Shown here: positions 3,836-61,545 of the stretch, one piece after another
Layout: each line of letters begins with the position of its first letter
Numbering within the stretch: position 1 is the first letter of the stretch
From: Eledone cirrhosa
Lineage: Eukaryota
Direction: 5' to 3'
Length of the DNA stretch: 64,000 bases
Assembly (NCBI GenBank): GCA_964016885.1
Contig: OZ024755.1
Location: 33,914,001 to 33,978,000, forward strand
Translations under genes and position numbers: made by a program
Notes under the pieces: generated by a model
Databases searched by the model: none
What the model was told of the DNA's origin: nothing
What the model saw: only the letters and a program-made list of their open reading frames with translations

Positions 3836-4023
3836 AACGAAGGAAATGTGGTAAGGAACCAGGTGGACCATAACGCACCAAAGTACTCAATACTTAGGGT
3901 AGTAGAGTGGGTAATAGGAACAAGTAGGACCCCGGCGGCTGAGTTCAAGCCGTTTCGACGGCTAATTCGTCCAGAATTAGCCGTCGAAACGGCTTGAGCT
4001 CAGCCGTCGGGGTCCTACTTGTT

Positions 4024-4030
<7 letters not shown>
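3836..4030. mobile_element. fold-back element in (TA)n carrying a 3' half hammerhead (Penelope-like pLTR remnant, family 2)
   Basis: Inverted arms ~3917-3968 and ~3975-4027. GAAA-CGGCT-TGAGCTC-AGCCG-TC-GGGGTCC gives the GAAA box, stem III, GUC and a stem I strand. Homologues at 5670-5745 and 55703-55893. Confidence 0.7.
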
Positions 4031-7301: not shown

Positions 7302-8428
7302 ACAGAGAAGATATAAAATATATTACATGTATTTCAATATATAACTAGATTTTATTTTCAAGTGTCACATCCTCTTAGCTCTAAACCTGAGTTTTTCTTT
7401 AACATTTATTCAGGCCTCTGCTTATCCTTTTGCATAATATATATTTACATATGTAGAGAGAGAGAGAGAGAAGGACAGACAAACAAACAGATCTGTGTGT
7501 GTAGATGTGTGTTTGTGCATATGGGTGCACATATACACACATGTTAATAACAACCATGAAAGAAGAAAATAACAAACGAACAGATTTGAAGTCAGTGTAT
7601 ATAATGACAAAAGCATAATGAGAATATTTGAAATTCATTCAACCCATATTACAAACAATGATATGCTGAAACAGGAAGACATATGCATATTTACATTTAT
7701 ATAGAAGCACATACATTAAAAAAATATTTAAACATTTATACATTTATACATTTATACAAAAATAGCACTCTACATTAGATCTTTGAGTAGGCGAATTTCG
7801 GAAGAATGGTTTATTTTTCGAATTTAGTTATTTCTGCTTCATGATTCGGGTAGAATTTGGACAAAGAACTTCTGCTATTGTTCTATGCTATTCTTAGTTG
7901 AAATTATTTAATTCATTTGCTTGCTATGCTTGACATTATTATGGTTTGATTCAATGTTTGTCATAGTTATGAAATAAAAGAAATCATTATAATTTGTATT
8001 GACATTAGGCACAGGAGAGGCTGAAAAAAGCTAGAGTGATAAATAAAATGTTTTTTTTTTCTGTATATCATGCGTTTCTGAACAATAACATTGTTGGTTA
8101 TAGGTTTCCATCGGGCTGCTTTTCGGGATATTGAGAGTCACAAAGGAGTGTTAGCCAACACCAGCATAATAAATACGAAGGGGTGTTTTGTTTGATGAAA
8201 CAATTTATTAGCAATTTCTCACTGATGTATATGGCTTTCATCAATACACACAGACACAAAAGGCATACCCATGCAAATATATGTATATATATATATACAT
8301 ATGTAGGAGGTGAGTTTTATTGTAGTACAAGAAAGCAATGCAGATATCGGATAAGTAGCACTCTACAGTTTGTAGGACTGGAGTATAAATAATATATAAG
8401 ATCAAAAGATGGTTAAAAGAGTTCCATG

Positions 8429-8499
8429 TATTTTATTATGCGCATTTCACAAACAAATATCATCATGCGATGATATTTGCGTTTTCATCAGATAAAATA
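8429..8499 (-). ncRNA. type I hammerhead ribozyme motif
   Basis: Minus strand: TATTTTAT-CTGATGA-long stem II (CAAATATCATC/GATGATATTTG)-GAAA-T-GCGC-A-TA-ATAAAATA. 8-bp stem I and palindromic GCGC loop III. Confidence 0.8.
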
Positions 8500-8562
8500 G
8501 GGAGACATGATTTAAAACTGCACTATTCACAAGTGTTTTTTAACCTTCATATCATGTCTCCC

Positions 8563-8633
8563 TATTTTATCTGATGAAAACGCAGATGTCATCGCATGAT
8601 GATATTTGTTTTTGAAATGCGCATAATAAAATA
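8563..8633 (+). ncRNA. type I hammerhead ribozyme motif
   Basis: TATTTTAT-CTGATGA-stem II-GAAA-T-GCGC-A-TA-ATAAAATA. Confidence 0.8.
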
Positions 8634-8898
8634 CATGGAACTCTTTTAACCATCTTTTGATCTTATATATTATATATACATATATACATATAAATATATA
8701 TATACACATATATACATATATATATACACACACATATATATATATACACATATATTAAAGAGTTAAACAAGATTCAATAAGTACATCAAAGAATGAGTTT
8801 TACAGTAGATTGGAAGCACTCTACAAAAAATAATTTTCCAGAGTTATTAATATTAAAATATAAATATTAATAAAATAGATGCTCTTTTGATCAATTAA

Positions 8899-11715: not shown

Positions 11716-11840
11716 TAGAAGGAGCAATGTGAAATAAAGTGTCTTGCTCAAAGACATAACGCATCGCCTGGTCCAGGAATCGAACTCACAAACTTACGAT
11801 TGCGAATCCAATTCTCTAACCACTCAGCCACACGCCTTCA
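11716..11840 (-). mobile_element. tRNA-derived SINE head (family B-related)
   Basis: Minus strand GGCGTGTGGCTGAGTGGTTAGAG...GAGTTCGATTCC...TCTTTGAGCAAGACACTTTATTTCACATTGCTCC. Confidence 0.8.
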
Positions 11841-12800
11841 CCATATATATATAAACCATATAAATATATAACCCATATATATATAAACCATATATATATA
11901 AACCATATATATATAACCCATATATATATATAAACCATATATATATAAAAACCATATATATATAAACCATATATATAAACCATATATATAACCCATATAT
12001 ATATAAACCATATATATATAAACCATACATATAACCCATATATATATAAAACATATATATATAAACCATATATATATAAAACATATATATATAAACCATA
12101 TATATATAAACCATATATATATAAACCATATATATATAAACCATATATATATAAACCATATATATATAAACCATATATATATAAACCATATATATATAAA
12201 CCATATATATATAAACCATATATATATAAAACATATATATATAAACCATATATATATAAAACATATATATATAAACCATATATATATAAACCATATATAG
12301 ATAACCCATATATATATATAAACCATATATATATAAACCATATATATAACACATATATATATAAACCATATATATATAAACCATATATATATATAAAACA
12401 TATATATATAAACAATATATATATAAAACATATATATATATAAAACATATATATATAAACCATATATATATAAACCATATATATATAACACATATATATA
12501 TAAACCATATATAAATAACCCATATATATATAAACCATATATATATAAACCATATATATATAAACCATATATATATAAACCATATATAAATAACCCATAT
12601 ATATATAAACCATATATATATAAACCATATATATATAAACCATATATATATAAACCATATATATATAAACCATATATAAATAACCCATATATATATAAAC
12701 CATATATATATATCTCAACCATATATATATATATAAACCATATATATATAAACCATATATATATAAACCATATATATATAAACCATATATATATAAACCA
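11840..12800. repeat. 15-bp minisatellite (AAACCATATATATAT)n
   Basis: Tandem units directly visible; source of the spurious GLYIY/MVYIY ORFs. Confidence 0.95.
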
Positions 12801-13835
12801 TCAAAAATCTTATAGAATGGTGTGTTCATTTTAATCTCTGCAATATTCCTTTCTGCCTTTATAACATTCTTCTTTTCTCTGTATGATATTTTCTTATGCC
12901 ATAATCAAAGTCTCATTTATAGTGGTTGGCATAGCTCATCATGGTTACGTTGATTTGTCAACCAGTTCAGAATGTTTATAATCATATTACTAAATGTTAT
13001 CATGCAGTTCTCTTTATCATGGACAGATTTTATCAATTTTCTCTAGGCGATTGATCTGGATGGATGAATAGGATGTCACACCAGGTGATTTGTCCAGAAA
13101 CTTATGACATATGGTGACATCAGCACAAACCGGTTTTAGGATAACTTCAACCATCAATGAAATCCAACTACAAATTTATAGATTTGCATTTATGTTCCTG
13201 TAACATTCATGAATATAACAATACATCCTGTCGGTAGGTGTTCATTGTACTGTTATTGATAAAACAATGAATATTTGAGAATTCGAAATTTGAAAGCCAC
13301 GACAATGCGGGTTGGATGGAAAATAATGAAGTCGTAAGAAACAGAGGTTGTTTTTTTACCTTAATTTATTCATAGGTCCTGATATTTCGAGATTAATATC
13401 TCTTCTTCTGAGAAAAATAAAGGAACTATTCCAGTGTCCAATGTGATTGTTTTCAGTTTTAAGTTAATTTGCTTCTCATAATAGCTTTGAGAGATTTATT
13501 TAGTCCTATACTCATGTTTATATCTTTGATGAATTTATCAAAATGTTTAGTAGCTACTCCAGTTGTGTAATGTCTCTTGTAAATAGTTTAAAGTCATCTA
13601 GAAGATGATATTTCGAGATTAACATCTCTTCTTCTGAGAAAAATAAAGGAACTATTCTAGTGTCCGATGTGGCTTACTGACATCTCAGGCTGGTTTGTCT
13701 ATCATTGATAAAAAATCCAGATTGACGTATGATGTCTGGCAGTGTGGGGTAGGGATATGATTGTAGGGGTACTTTCATAACTGGACCATCTCTGTTATCA
13801 ATCATCTATACCTTCAGATTTATGTAGCTATATTA

Positions 13836-14830
13836 ATCTGTACCTCCAGTAATCTCTACCTCCAGTCATCTGTACCTCCAGTCATCTGTACCTCCACTCA
13901 TCTGTACCTCCAGTAATCTCTACCTCCACTCATCTGTACCTCCAGTAATCTCTACCTCCAGTCATCTGTACCTCCAGTAATCTCTACCTCCAGTAATCTG
14001 TAGGTCCAGTCATCTGTACCTCCTCTCATCTGTACCTCCAGTAATCTCTACCTCCAGTAATCTCTACCTCCACTTATCTCTACCTCCACTCATCTGTACC
14101 TCCAATAATCTCTACTTCCAGTCATCTGTACCTCCTCTCATCTGTACCTCCAGTCATCTGTACCTCCACACATCTGTACCTCCAGTCATCTGTACCTCCA
14201 CTCATCTGTACCTCCAGTCATCTGTACCTCCAGTCATCTGTACCTCCAGTCATCTGTACCTCCAGTCATCTGTACCTCCAGTAATCTCTACCTCCAGTCA
14301 TCTGTACCTCCAGTAATCTCTACCTCCAGTCATCTGTACCTCCAGTAATCTCTACCTCCAGTCATCTGTACCTCCAGTCATCTGTACCTCCACTCATCTG
14401 TACCTCCACTCATCTGTACCTCCAGTCATCTGTACCTCCACTCATCTGTACCTCCAGTAATCTCTACTTCCAGTAATCTGTACCTCCACTCATCTGTACC
14501 TCCACTCATCTGTACATCCACTCATCTGTACCTCCACTCATCTGTACCTCCAGTAATCTCTACCTCCAGTCATCTGCACCTCCAGTCATCTGTACCTCCA
14601 GTAATCTCTACCTCCAGTCATCTGTACCTCCAGTAATCTCTACCTCCAGTCACCTGTACCTCTAGTAATCTCTATCTCCAGTAATCTCCACCTCCAGCCA
14701 TCTGCACCTCCAGTCACCTCCACCTCCAGTTATCTGTACCTCCAGTTATCTCCACCTCCAGCCACCTCCACCCGTCTGTACCTCCAGTGACCTACACCTC
14801 CACCCGTCTGGACCTTCAGTTATCTGCCCT
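13836..14830. repeat. 16-bp minisatellite (CATCTGTACCTCCAGT)n
   Basis: Tandem units with variants AATCTCTACC and CCACT. Confidence 0.95.
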
Positions 14831-18954: not shown

Positions 18955-20003
18955 GCCCACTTTATAAAGTAGTAGAGCTTATGTCATCATTAAATGTACC
19001 CAGCCTACTCTATATAGTAGTAGAGCTTATGTCATCATTAAATATACCCAGCCTACTCTATAAAGTAGTAGAGCTTATGTCATCATTAAATATACCCAGC
19101 CTACTCTATATAGTAGTAGAGCTTATGTCATCATTAAATATACCCAGCCTGCTCTATATAGTAGTAGAGCTTATGTCATCATTAAATATACCCAGCCTAC
19201 TCTATAAAGTAGTAGAGCTTATGTCATCATTAAATATACCCAGCCTGCTCTATATAGTAGTAGAGCTTATGTCATCATTAAATATACCCAGCCTACTCTA
19301 TATAGTAGTAGAGCTTATATCATCATTAAATATACCCAGCCCACTCTATATAGTAGTAGAGCTTATGTCATCATTAAATATACCCAGCCTACTCTATATA
19401 GTAGGAGAGCTTATGTCATCATTAAATATACCCAGCCTACTCTATAAAGTAGTAGAGCGTATGTCATCATTAAATGTACCCAGCCTACTCTATATAGTAG
19501 TAGAGCTTATGTCATCATTAAATATACCCAGCCCACTCTATAAAATAGTAGCGCTGGTGCCATGATAATATGCACCTAACCCACTCTATAAAGTAGTAGT
19601 GATGGTGCCATGATAATATGCACCAAGCCACTCTATAAAGTAGTAGTGATGGTGCCATGATAATATGCACCAAGCCCACTCTATAAAGTAGTAGTGCTGG
19701 TGCCATAATATGCACCAAGCCCACTCTATAAAATAGTAGCGCTGGTGCCATGATAATATGCACCAAGCCACTCTATAAAGTAGTAGTGATGGTGCCATGA
19801 TAATATGCACCAAGCCCACTCTATAAAGTAGTAGTGCTGGTGCCATAATATGCACCAAGCACACTCTATAAAGTAGTAGTGCTCGTGTTAGGATAATATG
19901 CACCTAACCCACTCTATAAAGTAGTAGTGATGGTGCCATGATAATATGCACCAAGCCCACTCTATAAAGTAGCAGTGCTGGTGCCATGATAATATGTACC
20001 CAG
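18955..20003. repeat. 48-bp minisatellite with two successive unit variants
   Basis: ATGTCATCATTAAATATACCCAGCCTACTCTATATAGTAGTAGAGCTT up to ~19545, then CCACTCTATAAAGTAGTAGTGATGGTGCCATGATAATATGCACCAAGC. Confidence 0.95.
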
Positions 20004-20185
20004 CGGTGGATTGGCAGTATCGGTAGAGGGTCGGACGCCATGCTTTCCAGCATAGTTACGTCCCTTTACGATCTGAGTTCAAATCCCGCCGAGGTTGACT
20101 TTGCCTTTCATCCTTACGGGGTCGATAAAATAAAGTACCAGTAATGAACTGGGTAATTGCTGGCCTTGTGCCTAAAGTAGACACA
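20004..20185 (+). mobile_element. SINE family A
   Basis: Full-length match to the family consensus. Confidence 0.9.
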
Positions 20186-29674: not shown

Positions 29675-29709
<35 letters not shown>

Positions 29710-29713
<4 letters not shown>

Positions 29714-29886
29714 GATGAGATTCTACAGGACTAGAACTGTTTCATTCTTTAGAAATCATCAGGAATTTTCTGAAGAATGAAACAGTTCTAGTCCTGTAGA
29801 ATCTCATCTATATTAAAACTTTTATACTCTGCTATGTATTGAGTACCTTACTTACTGTGGTTACCTCCGATTCAACCCGGAATAAC

Positions 29887-31516: not shown

Positions 31517-31825
31517 CATATAATAAAGAGGAAATTAAAAGATGGTTAAAAGAGTTCCATATATTTTATTATGCACATTTCAAATACAAAATCATCCTGG
31601 GAAAAAAATTGTGTTCTCATCAGATAAAATAAGGTAACATGATATGAGGCATAATAGCACTTGTTTACAGGAAAGTGCTAATGCACATATTAAAATATAT
31701 GGAACTCTTTTAACCATCTTTTAATTTCTTCTTTATTATATATACTCCAGTTCTACCAACTATTGAGTGCTACTTATCTGATATATGCATAGTTTTATTG
31801 TTCTACAATATTACTCACCTTCTAC
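31517..31825. mobile_element. family 1 fold-back element with a minus-strand hammerhead (31562-31631)
   Basis: Arms ~31519-31577 and ~31682-31742. Minus strand reads TATTTTAT-CTGATGA...GAAA-T-GTGC-A-TA-ATAAAATA. The plus arm has a tail with TTGAGTGCTA, homologous to 8305-8395. Confidence 0.78.
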
Positions 31826-37866: not shown

Positions 37867-37939
37867 AAAAGATTGTGCCAACCTCCGGATGCCGAAACCC
37901 GTATATATATATGTATATATTTATATATTTATATTTATA

Positions 37940-37986
<47 letters not shown>

Positions 37987-38114
37987 AAAGTTCTATTTAA
38001 AATTGTTGGGATACAACAAGTAAATATTTTTATAACTGATATAAAGCACTCGACAAGTTTTTGGAGTAGATATACGATATTAATAAATGGAAACTATATT
38101 TATAAAACCATATT

Positions 38115-38179
38115 TATTTCATTATACATATTTCAGGGATACCACATTAAATTATGGTATGCCTTCATCAGACAAAATA
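38115..38179 (-). ncRNA. type I hammerhead ribozyme motif
   Basis: Minus strand: TATTTTGT-CTGATGA-AGGCATACCATA/TGTGGTATCCCT-GAAA-T-ATGT-A-TA-ATGAAATA. Confidence 0.8.
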
Positions 38180-38286
38180 CAATATATAACAGTTTTACAA
38201 ATAGCTTTGACGTACCCTTTTAAAATACAACCATTACTTTTTTTAAAAGGGTACGTCAAAGCTATTTGTAAAACTGTTATATATTG

Positions 38287-38351
38287 TATTTTGTCTGATG
38301 AAGGCATACCATAATTTAATGTGGTATCCCTGAAATATGTATAATGAAATA
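38287..38351 (+). ncRNA. type I hammerhead ribozyme motif
   Basis: Same motif as 38115-38179, on the plus strand. Confidence 0.8.
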
Positions 38352-38391
38352 AATAAGGTTTTATAAATATAGTTTCCATTTATTAATATCG

Positions 38392-38485
<94 letters not shown>

Positions 38486-38500
38486 ATATATATTTATATT

Positions 38501-38531
<31 letters not shown>

Positions 38532-38610
38532 ATTTAGTAATAATAATAAATCTATATATATGTATATATATATATATATATATTTATATCTATGTATATA
38601 TATATATATT

Positions 38611-38661
<51 letters not shown>

Positions 38662-46645: not shown

Positions 46646-46809
46646 AATTCTATTTAAATTGTTGGGGTACAACAAGCAAATAATTTTATAACTGATATAA
46701 AGCACTCAACAAATAATTGGAGTAAAAATACTATCCGGAAGCTTCCAACAGTAATGGTCGCATTCTTTAAGGGTATGTCAATATTTATTTATAAAACTGC
46801 TCTATATTA

Positions 46810-46874
46810 TATTTTATCTGAAGAAAGCACACCATAATCTAACTTGGTGTCCTTGAAATATGTATAATGAAATA
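46810..46874 (+). ncRNA. type I hammerhead ribozyme motif (family 1), within a remnant fold-back at 46646-46915
   Basis: TATTTTAT-CTGAAGA-AAGCACACCA/TGGTGTCCTT-GAAA-T-ATGT-A-TA-ATGAAATA. 46648-46730 matches the inverted tail at 37990-38072. Confidence 0.78.
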
Positions 46875-47344
46875 AATATGGTTTTATAAATATAGTTTCC
46901 ATTTGTTAATATCGTATATATATATAAGGAAAAAAGTTGAAATCGAAACTGCAACGAGACTTTTTAAGAATATTTATTTGGTTCCTTTACTGGTTTCGCA
47001 GTTCTTGTGCTTTTCAAAAGTAGAATTGAGATGGAGGGTTTGTGGTTTTTCTCGCATCTGGTTGGTGTTTGAATGTTACTTCTGTTTTGAATAGGAAAAA
47101 GTGCCTCGAAATGCAAAGTTTTTAGAAAAGTAATTTGGTTGGTTGATGATTGTCATGTGAATAAGTATAATAAATTTTGTGCCAGTTCGCGTTACAAAGT
47201 TCTTATTATATTAGCCTTAAAAAAAAAAAGGACGGGTGGAGGGGGGATCAGATTGTTTTTTCATATATGAGTGAAATTTGGTTGGAAAAAAAATATATAT
47301 GTATTTATATTTATATATATATGTATGTGTATATATATATCTTT

Positions 47345-56397: not shown

Positions 56398-56522
56398 TTG
56401 TTTTATAAATATTGACATATCCAGGAATGAGACCTTAACGGTTCAAGTTTTACCTGGACTATCCAGGTAAAACTTTAACCATTAAGGTCTCATTCCTGGA
56501 TATGTCAATATTTATAAAACAA
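56398..56522. repeat. near-perfect 60-bp-arm palindrome (family 1 fold-back centre)
   Basis: ttgttttataaatattgacatatccaggaatgagacc...tacctgga / tccaggta...ggtctcattcctggatatgtcaatatttataaaacaa. Confidence 0.9.
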
Positions 56523-56528
56523 ACTTTG

Positions 56529-56589
56529 TATTTTATCTGATGAGAGCGTATCAAAGTTTTGGTACTCTTGAAATATATATAATAGAATA
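56529..56589 (+). ncRNA. type I hammerhead ribozyme motif (family 1)
   Basis: TATTTTAT-CTGATGA-GAGCGTATCAAA/TTTGGTACTC-GAAA-T-ATAT-A-TA-ATAGAATA. Confidence 0.75.
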
Positions 56590-56680
56590 AATATGGTTTT
56601 ATAAATATAGTTTCCATTTATTAATATCATTGATATATATTTATATATATATATGATGATGATGATGATGATGATATATA

Positions 56681-56845
56681 TAGTTATGTAATAAACAACA
56701 TAAGATAATTAATTCATTTACCAGTGGTTCCTTGAAGACAGCTATTTACATCTGTCTTTCTGACAACTGAAGGCAGATATAAATATGTCTTGAAGAAACC
56801 ACTGGTAAATGAATTAATTATCTTATGTTGTTTATTACATAACTA
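56681..56845. repeat. fold-back with ~75 bp arms next to (TA)n, with a tail to ~56905
   Basis: tagttatgtaataaacaacataagataattaattcatttaccagtggtt / aaccactggtaaatgaattaattatcttatgttgtttattacataacta. Confidence 0.88.
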
Positions 56846-57349: not shown

Positions 57350-59636
57350 AGTTAGTGTGTAGCTTGTGTGTATGTTTTCTTGTATATACACCTAGTACTG
57401 TTAGTGTGTAGCTTGTGTGTATGTTTTCTTGTGTATACACCTAGTACTGTTAGTATGTAGCTTGTGTGGATATTTTCTTGTGTATACACCTAGTACTGTT
57501 AGTATGTAGCTTGTCTGTATGTTTTCTTGTGTATACACCTAGTACTGTTAGTATGTAGCTTGTGTGTATGTTTTCTTGTGTATACACCTAGTACTGTTAG
57601 TATGTAGCTTGTGTGTATGTTTTCTTGTGTATACACCTAGTACTGTTAGTGTGTAGCTTGTGTGTATGTTTTCTTGTGTATACACCTAGTACTGTTAGTG
57701 TGTAGCTTGTGTGTATGTTTTCTTGTGTATACACCTAGTACTGTTAGTATGTAGCTTGTGTGTATGTTTTCTTGTGTATACACCTAGTACTGTTAGTATG
57801 TAGCTTGTGTGTATGTTTTCTTGTGTATACACCTAGTACTGTTAGTATGTAGCTTGTGTGTATGTTTTCTTGTGTATACACCTAGTACTGTTAGTGTGTA
57901 GCTTGTGTGTATGTTTTCTTGTGTATACACCTAGTACTGTTAGTGTGTAGCTTGTGTGTATGTTTTCTTGTGTATACACCTAGTACTGTTAGTATGTAGC
58001 TTGTGTGTATGTTTTCTTGTGTATACACCTAGTACTGTTAGTGTGTAGCTTGTGTGGATATTTTCTTGTGTATACACCTAGTACTGTTAGTGTGTAGCTT
58101 GTGTGTATGTTTTCTTGTGTATACACCTAGTACTGTTAGTATGTAGCTTGTGTGTATGTTTTCTTGTGTATACACCTAGTACTGTTAGTGTGTAGCTTGT
58201 GTGGATATTTTCTTGTGTATACACCTAGTACTGTTAGTGTGTAGCTTGTGTGTATGTTTTCTTGTGTATACACCTAGTACTGTTAGTATGTAGCTTGTGT
58301 GTATGTTTTCTTGTGTATACACCTAGTACTGTTAGTGTGTAGCTTGTGTGGATATTTTCTTGTGTATACACCTAGTACTGTTAGTGTGTAGCTTGTGTGT
58401 ATGTTTTCTTGTGTATACACCTAGTACTGTTAGTATGTAGCTTGTGTGTATGTTTTCTTGTGTATACACCTAGTACTGTTAGTGTGTAGCTTGTGTGGAT
58501 ATTTTCTTGTGTATACACCTAGTACTGTTAGTGTGTAGCTTGTGTGTATGTTTTCTTGTGTATACACCTAGTACTGTTAGTATGTAGCTTGTGTGTATGT
58601 TTTCTTGTGTATACACCTAGTACTGTTAGTATGTAGCTTGTGTGGATATTTTCTTGTGTATACACCTAGTACTGTTAGTATGTAGCTTGTGTGGATATTT
58701 TCTTGTGTATACACCTAGTACTGTTAGTGTATAGCTTGTGTGTATGTTTTCTTGTGTATACACCTAGTACTGTTAGTGTGTAGCTTGTCTGTATGTTTTC
58801 TTGTGTATACACCTAGTACTGTTAGTGTGTAGCTTGTCTGTATGTTTTCTTGTGTATACACCTAGTACTGTTAGTGTGTAGCTTGTCTGTATGTTTTCTT
58901 GTGTATACACCTACTACTGTTAGTGTGTAGCTTGTGTGTATGTTTTCTTGTGTATACACCTAGTACTGTTAGTATGTAGCTTGTGTGGATATTTTCTTGT
59001 GTATACACCTAGTACTGTTAGTATGTAGCTTGTGTGGATATTTTCTTGTGTATACACCTAGTACTGTTAGTGTGTAGCTTGTGTGGATATTTTCTTGTGT
59101 ATACACCTAGTACTGTTAGTATGTAGCTTGTGTGTATGTTTTCTTGTGTATACACCTAGTACTGTTAGTATGTAGCTTGTGTGTATGTTTTCTTGTGTAT
59201 ACACCTAGTACTGTTAGTATGTAGCTTGTGTGTATGTTTTCTTGTGTATACACCTAGTACTGTTAGTGTGTAGCTTGTGTGGATATTTTCTTGTGTATAC
59301 ACCTAGTACTGTTAGTATGTAGCTTGTGTGGATATTTTCTTGTGTATACACCTAGTACTGTTAGTATGTAGCTTGTGTGGATATTTTCTTGTGTATACAC
59401 CTAGTACTGTTAGTGTGTAGCTTGTGTGTATGTTTTCTTGTGTATACACCTAGTACTGTTAGTGTGTAGCTTGTCTGTATGTTTTCTTGTGTATACACCA
59501 AGTACTGTTAGTGTGTAGCTTGTCTGTATGTTTTCTTGTGTATACACCTAGTACTGTTAGTGTGTAGCTTGTGTGTATGTTTTCTTGTGTATACACCTAG
59601 TACTGTTAGTGTGTAGCTTGTGTGGATATTTTCTTG
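57350..59636. repeat. 49-bp tandem satellite (~46 copies)
   Basis: GTACTGTTAGTRTGTAGCTTGTGTGTATGTTTTCTTGTGTATACACCTA, highly homogeneous. Confidence 0.97.
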
Positions 59637-59784
59637 TTTAGCTCCAGGTCAGTCTTGATTAAAGGCAAAAGACATATAATCAAAGGCATTCCAGCTGCGA
59701 CCATTTTATCTTTTCATCTTTTTTCAAGCATAGCATATCTAGGACTACACTGTCTAATGTGATACTCCGTCCTTAAAATTTGTA

Positions 59785-61545
59785 TGTTGTTTCTCGCTAA
59801 TGTGCATCTGTTCTGCATGTGTGTATTGACATTCTTTCTCGCAAATGTGCACCTATTCAGTTCTCCAAGTGTGTGCCACTGTAGTTCTGCACATGTGCAT
59901 CAGATGTTGCTTCTTGCAAATGTGCATCTATTCAGCTCTCGAAGAGTGTGTGGCACTGCAGTTCTGCATGTGTGCATTTGATGTTCTTTCTCATAAATGT
60001 GCATCTATTCAGCTCTCGAAGAGTGTGTGCCACTAGTTCTGCACGTGTGCATCAGATGATGCTTCTCCCAAATGTACATCTATTCAGCTCTTGAAGAGTG
60101 CGTGCCACTGCAGTTGTACATGTGTGCAATTGATGTTGCTTCTCGCAAATGTGCATCTATTCAGCTCTTGAAGAGTGTGTGCCGCTGCAGTTCTGCATGT
60201 GTGCATTTGATGTTCTTTCTCACAAATGTGCATCTATTCAGCTCTCGAAGAGTGTGTGCCACTGTAGTTGTGCATGTGTGCATCAGATGTTGCTTCTCAC
60301 AAATGTGCATCTATTCAGCTCTCCATGTGTGTACTTGTGTAAGTCTGCATGTGTGCATCAGATGTTGCTTCTCGCAAATGTGTATCTATTCAGCTCTCGA
60401 AGAGTGTGTGCCACTGTAGTTGTGCATGTGTGCATCAGATGTTGCTTCTCACAAATGTGCATCTATTCAGCTCTCCAACTGCATGCTTCTGTAGTTCTGC
60501 ATCAGATGTTGCTTCTCACAAATGTGCATCTAGTCAGCTCTCCAACTGCATGCTTCTGTAGTTCTGCATGTGTGTGCATCAGATGTTGCTTCTCACAAAT
60601 GTGCATCTACACAGCTCTCCAACTGCATGCTTCTGTAGTTCTGCATGTGTGTGCATCAGATGTTGCTTCTCGCAAATGTGCATCTACTCAGCGCTCCAAC
60701 TGCATGCTTCTGTAGTTCTGCATGTGTGTGCATCAGATGTTGCTTCTCGCAAACGAGTGTCTATTCTGTTCTTCAACTGCATGCTTCTGTAGTTCTGCAT
60801 GTGTGTGCATCAGATGTTGCTTCTCACAAATGTACATCTACTCAGCTCTCCAACTGCATGCTTCTGTAGTTCTGCATGTGTGTGCATCAGATGTTGCTTC
60901 TCACAAATGCGCATCTACTCAGCTCTCCAACTGCATGCTTCTGTAGTTCTGCATGTGTGTGCATCAGATGTTGCTTCTCACAAATGCGCATCTACTCAGC
61001 TCTCCAACTGCATGCTTCTGTAGTTCTGCATGTGTGTGCATCAGATGTTGCTTCTCGCAAACGAGTGTCTATTCTGTTCTTCAACTGCATGCTTCTGTAG
61101 TTCTGCATGTGTGTGCATCAGATGTTGCTTCTCACAAATGTGCATCTACTCAGCTCTCCAACTGCATGCTTCTGTAGTTCTGCATGTGTGTGCATCAGAT
61201 GTTGCTTCTCACAAATGCGCATCTACTCAGCTCTCCAACTGCATGCTTCTGTAGTTCTGCATGTGTGTGCATCAGATGTTGCTTCTCACAAATGCGCATC
61301 TACTCAGCTCTCCAACTGCATGCTTCTGTAGTTCTGCATGTGTGTGCATCAGATGTTGCTTCTCGCAAACGAGTGTCTATTCTGTTCTTCAACTGCATGC
61401 TTCTGTAGTTCTGCATGTGTGTGCATCAGATGTTGCTTCTCACAAATGCGCATCTACTCAGCTCTCCAACTGCATGCTTCTGTAGTTCTGCATGTGTGTG
61501 CATCAGATGTTGCTTCTCGCAAACGAGTGTCTATTCTGTTCTTCA
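59785..61545. repeat. 77-bp tandem satellite (diverged ~79-bp units on the 5' side)
   Basis: ORF starts recur every 77 bp; unit CATCAGATGTTGCTTCTCACAAATGTGCATCTACTCAGCTCTCCAACTGCATGCTTCTGTAGTTCTGCATGTGTGTG. Confidence 0.97.

What the first reader, a model, noticed from the sequence alone, without database searches (positions are those of the whole stretch)
37985..38395. Young ~150-bp-arm palindrome placing an intact hammerhead on each strand
Seen: the arms are near-identical reverse complements around a ~17 nt spacer, and each has a complete hammerhead pointing outward; (TA)n flanks both sides. A transcript from either strand would contain one ribozyme and its perfect antisense, so a long dsRNA hairpin competes with ribozyme folding. 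Inference: this could self-silence the ribozyme inside a host pre-mRNA, and it would be a strong substrate for ADAR or Dicer (coleoid cephalopods edit RNA extensively).
Basis: partly seen in the sequence, partly recalled or inferred. Interest (0 to 1): 0.75.

Follow-up and report, generated by a model that had tools for sequence, protein, structure and literature searches.

The report
Head-to-head Penelope retrotransposon stub palindrome
This palindrome is two short end pieces of a young Penelope-like jumping gene joined head to head inside a TA repeat, one of more than a thousand such pairs in this genome and a known way this class inserts; its hammerheads are of a minimal type predicted to cut only in pairs, so it is likely an insertion by-product rather than a ribozyme switch.

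Summary
The palindrome is real: two 151-nt arms with one mismatch, each with an outward hammerhead core, in (TA)n. It is not a special device. Both arms are the pseudo-LTR of a young Hydra-clade Penelope-like retroelement. Longer copies carry a 745-aa ORF whose model matches telomerase RT and a GIY-YIG nuclease. The 15-nt 'spacer' is element sequence, and the left arm alone has a 92-nt tail. The genome holds 1,127 outward pairs within 400 nt against 11 inward. In 51 of 53 simple pairs exactly one arm has the tail, and either arm can be the longer. This points to two reverse transcriptions primed from both ends of one (TA)n break (inferred). The hammerhead has a 2-bp, self-complementary helix III, a type reported inactive as a monomer, so 'self-silencing' likely has little to silence. 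The long hairpin is predicted; transcription, editing and dicing are untested. Inverted copies, one-sided tails and opposite-strand hammerhead pairs are in print, and this scan noted the same structure at several other loci of this genome.

The parts
37902..37982 (.). left (TA)n flank, part of the target microsatellite
   Evidence: TRF array 37902-37983
37983..38074 (-). 92-nt 'tail' of the pseudo-LTR, on this arm only; it begins with TATAT, and in the full element it is also followed by TATAT
   Evidence: matches the tail of full unit L040 at 90 of 92 positions by eye; context in L040
38075..38241 (-). left arm: 5'-truncated pseudo-LTR copy reaching 167 nt upstream of the tail boundary
   Evidence: 167 nt at 100% to L040; its 151-nt core is identical in 39 of 190 distinct arms
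38115..38179 (-). minimal type I hammerhead of the left arm; predicted cut after 38123
   Evidence: motif scan; helix model
38226..38240 (-). hairpin loop ('spacer'): element sequence of the left arm; 1-nt overlap with the right arm at 38241
   Evidence: junction gap -1; sequence
38241..38391 (+). right arm: 5'-truncated, tail-less pseudo-LTR copy of 151 nt with one private substitution at 38356
38287..38351 (+). minimal type I hammerhead of the right arm: helix I 38287-38294/38344-38351, core 38295-38301, helix II 38302-38331, GAAA 38332-38335, self-complementary helix III 38335-38342, predicted cut after 38343
   Evidence: paired changes in related window copies seen by eye; helix III 6-mer self-complementary in 44 of 48 distinct motif variants kept of 72 found
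38392..38661 (.). right (TA)n flank, part of the target microsatellite
   Evidence: TRF

Best explanation
The palindrome is two 5'-truncated pseudo-LTR copies of a young Hydra-clade Penelope-like retroelement joined head to head in a (TA)n repeat, likely written in one insertion event by two reverse transcriptions primed from the two ends of one break. Shown: the family identity, the 3.94-kb unit with an RT + GIY-YIG ORF, the (TA)n target, the one-sided tail and the abundance of such pairs. Inferred: the element's nuclease cuts both strands of (TA)n. Each 3' end pairs with one of two AUAU-type sites 92 nt apart in the element RNA (the two ends of the tail) and primes cDNA. Both cDNAs stop early and are joined at their 3' ends over little or no homology. 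The hammerheads are passengers from the pseudo-LTR. A transcript of either strand holds one dimer-type ribozyme that likely cuts poorly even without the antisense arm, and it would fold into a ~150-bp duplex that ADAR could edit if the locus is transcribed.
For: Identity: the arm matches copies genome-wide at 99% (793 candidates, 40 scored). L040 shows inverted pLTR, pLTR + tail, ORF, long 3' region, pLTR + tail. L052 has an open 745-aa ORF. Its model (pLDDT 90.7) hits telomerase RTs first (E 5.5e-10; Z 14.0, rmsd 5.4, 340 aligned). Residues 621-723 match the I-TevI GIY-YIG domain (Z 9.5, rmsd 2.2, 88 aligned). Hydra motifs are present. Abundance: 6,273 copies of a 16-nt core motif, 1,127 outward and 11 inward pairs within 40-400 nt. 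Mechanism: 51 of 53 simple outward pairs have the tail on exactly one arm (p 3e-13 against 0.5). Of 30 such pairs with a resolved junction, the tailed arm is longer in 12, the tail-less arm in 16, and 2 are tied (counted from the table). In those 16 neither arm contains the other, so copy-back cannot make them. Arms of one insertion share 52 variants against 6.0 (max 13) in 2,000 shuffled pairings of 54 pairs, so both come from one source. 134 of 136 tail-less arm records abut TA directly (overlapping loci not merged). Both outer ends are followed by TATAT in the element itself. PMC11167929 shows a PLE protein that cuts both strands and starts RT at two sites bounding the tail.
Against: At this locus the tailed arm is the longer one, so copy-back is not excluded here, and two pairs are near-perfect hairpins (L102, L117). 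Shared variants also fit copy-back or later arm-to-arm conversion. The sample is not random: it was picked by near-identity to this arm, by an exact 41-nt core on two contigs, or by the ORF, and it includes this locus. Target-site duplication cannot be read in (TA)n. Pfam did not call RT or GIY-YIG on this ORF. PMC11167929 reports RT start sites not homologous to the cut DNA in a Poseidon element, unlike the homology inferred here. Clade membership rests on motifs, not on a tree.
Confidence: 0.85

Rival explanations
1. Same element, but the second arm is made by fold-back self-priming: a cDNA (or an antisense RNA, as proposed in PMC3846280) snaps back at its end and copies itself until it anneals to the other (TA)n end.
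For: At this locus the tailed arm is longer and ends in a T run that could pair with an A run 12 nt earlier. Two pairs are near-perfect hairpins. Arms share variants. Self-priming is proposed in PMC3846280 (passage).
Against: In 16 of 30 resolved pairs the shorter arm carries a tail that the longer arm lacks, which copy-back cannot give. Here the junction has 7 T where simple snap-back predicts 4.
Confidence: 0.25
2. One reading: a selected device in which the antisense arm silences an otherwise active ribozyme inside a host pre-mRNA and feeds ADAR or Dicer.
For: The duplex is predicted to abolish all three helices. Octopus has an exceptional load of near-perfect dsRNA and hyper-editing, and a lizard Penelope element is massively edited (PMC5625713, passages).
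Against: One of at least 1,127 such pairs; young and near-identical to its family, so there is no sign of locus-specific selection. The single arm is not predicted to reach the active fold, and a minimal PLE hammerhead was inactive as a monomer (PMC4209133).
Confidence: 0.05
3. A fold-back assembly or library artefact.
For: Perfect palindromes in TA repeats are prone to such artefacts (general knowledge).
Against: The structure is asymmetric (tail on one arm, one mismatch, unrelated flanks beyond the TA runs). The one-tail rule holds in 51 of 53 pairs with different junctions. The architecture is described in other animals.
Confidence: 0.03

Closest known systems
Hydra clade of Penelope-like elements (Craig et al. 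2021, PMC8557442), including Hydra-1_Obim
   Same: C-terminal GIY-YIG; RW(K/R), DKT and CxCX5C motifs; no CCHH; CxxC and CxH around the conserved E and N; (TA)n target; hammerhead near the 3' end. An inverted 5'-truncated copy is noted for Penelope-13_HM. The N-terminal part of Hydra-1_Obim is clearly homologous by eye.
   Different: A different family: a 3.94-kb unit with a 3' region of about 1.5 kb (published lengths 1.4-3.0 kb), a 92-nt tail (30-40 bp in print), and a 2-bp self-complementary helix III where the four published Hydra hammerheads seen have 4-bp helices.
Minimal hammerheads of metazoan PLEs (Cervera and de la Pena 2014, PMC4209133)
   Same: Type I, long helix II, small palindromic helix III, located in pLTRs. 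The paper already reports dual motifs about 100-700 bp apart on opposite strands in Schistosoma.
   Different: A10.1-U11.1 (42 of 48 variants) instead of the conserved G-C; the pairs here are counted genome-wide and tied to a one-sided tail.
Inverted pLTR insertions with a one-sided tail (Arkhipova et al. 2013, PMC3846280) and two RT start sites of Poseidon PAc (Frangieh et al. 2024, PMC11167929)
   Same: Head-to-head 5'-truncated copies, a tail at one end, short overlap at the junction; two start sites bounding the tail.
   Different: Both start sites here carry TATAT homology to the (TA)n target. The either-arm-longer pattern argues for twin priming rather than the self-priming proposed in 2013.
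Non-LTR retrozymes (bioRxiv 10.64898/2026.07.22.740005; part 1 of 5 read)
   Same: Type I hammerhead in PLE-derived, non-coding sequence.
   Different: Retrozymes are direct tandem units; this is an inverted pair of truncated ends of an autonomous family.

Membership tests
Penelope-like element (EN+) | single ORF with telomerase-like RT | tested here: met
   745-aa ORF in sister copy L052; top fold hits are telomerase RTs; Y352, D355 invariant in 90 homologues. The window copy itself has no ORF.
Penelope-like element (EN+) | C-terminal GIY-YIG endonuclease | tested here: met
   I-TevI catalytic domain Z 9.5, rmsd 2.2, 88 aligned, residues 621-723; Y625, Y638, G640, R649, H653 invariant; Atlas lead. 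Pfam gave no hit on this ORF.
Penelope-like element (EN+) | pseudo-LTRs in partial tandem, with an inverted 5'-truncated copy | tested here: met
   L040; 61 distinct outward pairs, 8 of them with a tandem
Penelope-like element (EN+) | [quoted passage not shown] | tested here: met
   51 of 53 simple pairs; the tail is 92 nt, longer than the published 30-40 bp
Penelope-like element (EN+) | hammerhead motif in the pLTR | tested here: met
Hydra clade | RWK, DKT, CxCX5C linker, no CCHH, CxxC and CxH around E and N | tested here: met
   W38 in 83 of 90 (S in the L052 copy, W in sister copies); D118-K119-T120; C604, C606, C612 invariant; C627 in only 6 of 90; C702/C705 and C729/H731 conserved
Hydra clade | insertion in (TA)n | tested here: met
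   134 of 136 tail-less arm records abut TA (overlapping loci not merged)
Hydra clade | phylogenetic grouping with reference Hydra RTs | not tested
   reference sequences were only seen in a paper supplement and were not brought into a tree
Minimal type I hammerhead | conserved core, helices I and II, small palindromic helix III | tested here: met
   paired changes in related window copies seen by eye
Minimal type I hammerhead | self-cleavage | not testable with these tools
   only an indirect, weak excess of genomic 5' ends at the predicted cut
Non-LTR retrozyme | direct tandem units, each with a hammerhead | tested here: not met
   the two copies are inverted and truncated; TRF finds only TA arrays here
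microRNA precursor (Rfam MIR6140) | score above the family threshold | tested here: not met
   70.3 bits against a gathering score of 140; the match rests on the hairpin shape

The most novel reading that the evidence does not exclude
Hydra-clade PLEs insert by twin priming: both ends of a (TA)n break pair with two AUAU sites that bound the tail, and the two cDNAs are joined head to head. This explains the class's unexplained inverted ends and one-sided tail. Because every such event leaves a near-perfect hairpin (more than 1,100 for this family group alone, about six short palindromes in this 64-kb window), these insertions are a main source of the long dsRNA behind heavy A-to-I editing in this animal group.
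Probability: 0.35. Interest if true: 0.6.

Novelty: new member of a known kind. Interest (0 to 1): 0.22.

Why it matters
The locus itself is ordinary. The family is useful as a test set. It is young, has copies with open ORFs and more than a thousand short inverted pairs, and these show a strict one-tail rule with either arm longer. That bears on how Penelope-like elements form inverted ends, which PMC8557442 names as an open task. The same palindromes are candidate ADAR substrates in a lineage with an unusually high dsRNA load, which RNA data could test directly.

Tried and rejected
Rfam scan: no hammerhead model among the 150 of 159 matches shown; the MIR6140 hit is below threshold and was rejected. 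Pfam on ORF fragments and on three long ORFs: no family at threshold; 3 of 26 homologues had weak RVT_1 or GIY-YIG hits. PDB sequence searches found nothing meaningful. A genome search with the tail returned no candidates, probably because common words are skipped. Sequencing runs: no RNA holder listed, which says nothing about expression. Laying DNA contigs and reads at 90% was swamped by family copies. At 99% none of the 28 of 79 contig pieces shown bridged the junction, which is inconclusive; the empty site could not be tested. ADAR footprint in retrotransposed ORF copies: none (72 A>G against 62 T>C singletons in 30 loci, p 0.29); this does not test editing of palindrome RNA. Genomic 5' ends at the predicted ribozyme cut: 82 pattern hits, 17 of 30 inspected truly truncated (about 46), against controls of 20 with 5 of 15 (about 7) and 43 with 8 of 15 (about 23). 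That is a weak excess, confounded by TA microhomology and related families, and it was not used as support. Host gene: the ORF list of the window plus 10 kb each side showed no exon that I could recognise by eye (no profile scan), so an intronic position is open. No earlier notes near the locus or by sequence.

Full report
Observation. The inverted repeat is centred at 38233. The arms 38075-38225 and 38241-38391 pair at 150 of 151 positions, with one mismatch at 38110/38356, and each holds an outward CUGAUGA...GAAA core. (TA)n flanks both sides. The loop is 15 nt and is element sequence: the left arm reaches 167 nt upstream of the tail boundary, the right arm 151, and they overlap by 1 nt. The left arm alone carries a further 92 nt, 37983-38074. 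The hammerhead is minimal (see below).

What it belongs to. The arm matches many genome copies at 99% (793 candidates, 40 scored). The exact 41-nt core occurs 740 times and a 16-nt part 6,273 times, with reversed controls at 0. Locus L040 shows the whole unit: an inverted truncated copy, a pseudo-LTR with tail, an ORF, a long 3' region and a second pseudo-LTR with tail, 3.94 kb apart. Of 30 ORF loci, two have an open, Met-started frame of about 740 codons (L052, L073). The L052 protein (745 aa) has no Pfam hit but 235 relatives at E <= 1e-20 among 7,991 scored candidates. I aligned 89 of the 120 listed with it. Its model (pLDDT 90.7) matches telomerase RTs first, and residues 621-723 match the GIY-YIG domain of I-TevI (Z 9.5, rmsd 2.2, 88 aligned). 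The alignment shows RW(K/R), DKT, CxCX5C, no CCHH, and CxxC and CxH around E and N. These are the features given for the Hydra clade (PMC8557442, section 11). The clade name was first suggested to me by earlier scan notes and a passage returned in the same turn. No tree was built.

How common the arrangement is. The genome has 1,127 outward pairs of the 16-nt motif within 40-400 nt and 11 inward pairs; a copy may be counted in more than one match. I examined 61 distinct outward pairs from fetched loci. The sample was chosen by likeness to this arm, by the exact core on two contigs, or by the ORF, and it includes this locus. Of 53 simple pairs, 51 have the tail on exactly one arm, one on neither and one on both. 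The 8 pairs that run into a tandem copy were set aside. In the 30 one-tail pairs whose junction resolved within 30 nt, the tailed arm is longer in 12, the tail-less arm in 16, and 2 are tied. Junctions overlap in 16, are blunt in 4 and have extra bases in 10 (counted from the table). The two arms of one insertion differ at 1.9 of 140 positions against 3.6 between insertions, and share 52 variants against 6.0 in shuffled pairings (54 pairs). Tail-less arms abut TA directly in 134 of 136 records; tailed arms abut TA in 80 of 108, run into a tandem in 19 and were unclassified in 9 (overlapping loci not merged). In the element itself both outer ends are followed by TATAT. 5' ends pile up 170-189 nt upstream of the tail boundary (41 of 189 arms, against 13 in the next 50 nt). 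Earlier notes read such a pile-up as the RNA start; the sample bias makes my check only partial.

Mechanism. Shown: identity, target, one-tail rule, either arm longer, common source of both arms. Inferred: the nuclease cuts both strands of (TA)n; each 3' end pairs with one of the two AUAU sites and primes cDNA; both cDNAs stop early and are joined. Copy-back cannot give the 16 pairs in which the shorter arm has a tail that the longer arm lacks. It remains possible for this locus, where the tailed arm is longer, although the junction has 7 T where snap-back predicts 4. A Poseidon PLE protein cuts both strands and starts RT at two sites that bound the tail, but at sites reported as not homologous to the cut DNA (PMC11167929, parts 1-2 of 4 read). 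Self-priming was proposed earlier for head-to-head PLE repeats (PMC3846280, passages). One search for Penelope, inverted, twin priming and pLTR listed no paper holding both of the last two terms. The library lacks most subscription journals, so this is not proof of absence. I put the identity at about 0.95 and twin priming as the family's main route at about 0.65.

The ribozyme. Helix II is long and stable (p 0.97 in a single arm). Helix III is 2 bp inside a self-complementary 8-mer, and helix I has two G-U pairs next to the core. In single arms helices I and III have p <= 0.017; in the full palindrome all three are 0.000, with MFE about -246 to -248 kcal/mol. These models ignore tertiary contacts and proteins. 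The helix III 6-mer is self-complementary in 44 of 48 motif variants kept of 72, as expected of a dimer-type ribozyme. PMC4209133 (parts 1-2 of 4 read) reports that such motifs sit in PLE pLTRs, that a single one showed no cleavage and dimers little, and that dual motifs about 100-700 bp apart on opposite strands occur in Schistosoma. The Poseidon ribozyme needed the protein. So a transcript of either strand holds one weak ribozyme, and the antisense arm likely has little to switch off. A test for genomic 5' ends at the predicted cut gave a weak, confounded excess (about 46 against 7 and 23).

dsRNA, ADAR, Dicer. If transcribed, the locus would be a good duplex. Octopus has an exceptional share of near-perfect dsRNA-forming loci, and a lizard Penelope element is heavily edited (PMC5625713, passages). 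Transcription across the locus, editing and small RNAs were not tested. ORF copies show no A>G excess, which concerns only retrotransposed RNA.

Artefact. The asymmetry, the unrelated flanks and the one-tail rule across different junctions argue against a fold-back artefact. No independent read across this junction was obtained.

Verdict. A real, ordinary insertion of a previously unnamed-looking Hydra-clade family; I did not check Repbase or Dfam, so it may already be catalogued. The architecture is in print (PMC8557442: passages, section 11 and supplement searches) and was noted at other loci of this genome by this scan. Supplements of the bioRxiv retrozyme paper (part 1 of 5 read) were not seen and could list related families. 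Interest 0.22.

Noticed in passing
window 8383-8679: A second, older head-to-head palindrome (89% identity) with a hammerhead core on each arm (8491 -, 8571 +) from another family; its helix III is a perfect palindrome.
   Followed up: partly
window 56398-56600 and 56681-56845: Two more short palindromes. The first leads into a related hammerhead at 56537. The second holds a hammerhead-like motif whose 4-bp helix III resembles that listed for Hydra-1_Obim.
   Followed up: partly
window 29709-29813 and 3914-4028: Two further ~110-nt palindromes in (TA)n. The first turns inside a hammerhead-like core; no core was seen in the second. With the finding, that makes six short palindromes in 64 kb.
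   Followed up: partly
window 46740-46915 and 31540-31700: Solo, tail-less arms of related families; the one at 46818 has CUGAAGA at the core.
   Followed up: no
L052:1519-3756 (-): The 745-aa protein has an Asn-rich disordered insert at about 480-515 between RT and nuclease and escapes Pfam RT and GIY-YIG models, so annotation pipelines would miss this family.
   Followed up: partly
L175 and L176: Both arms of one inverted pair begin at the predicted ribozyme cut and are preceded by the same piece of the element's ORF start, as expected of a circularised or rearranged template.
   Followed up: no
window 57351-59637, 59836-61523, 18955-20004, 13836-14761, 11840-12801: Long minisatellite arrays with 49-, 77-, 48-, 16- and 15-bp units.
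   Followed up: no
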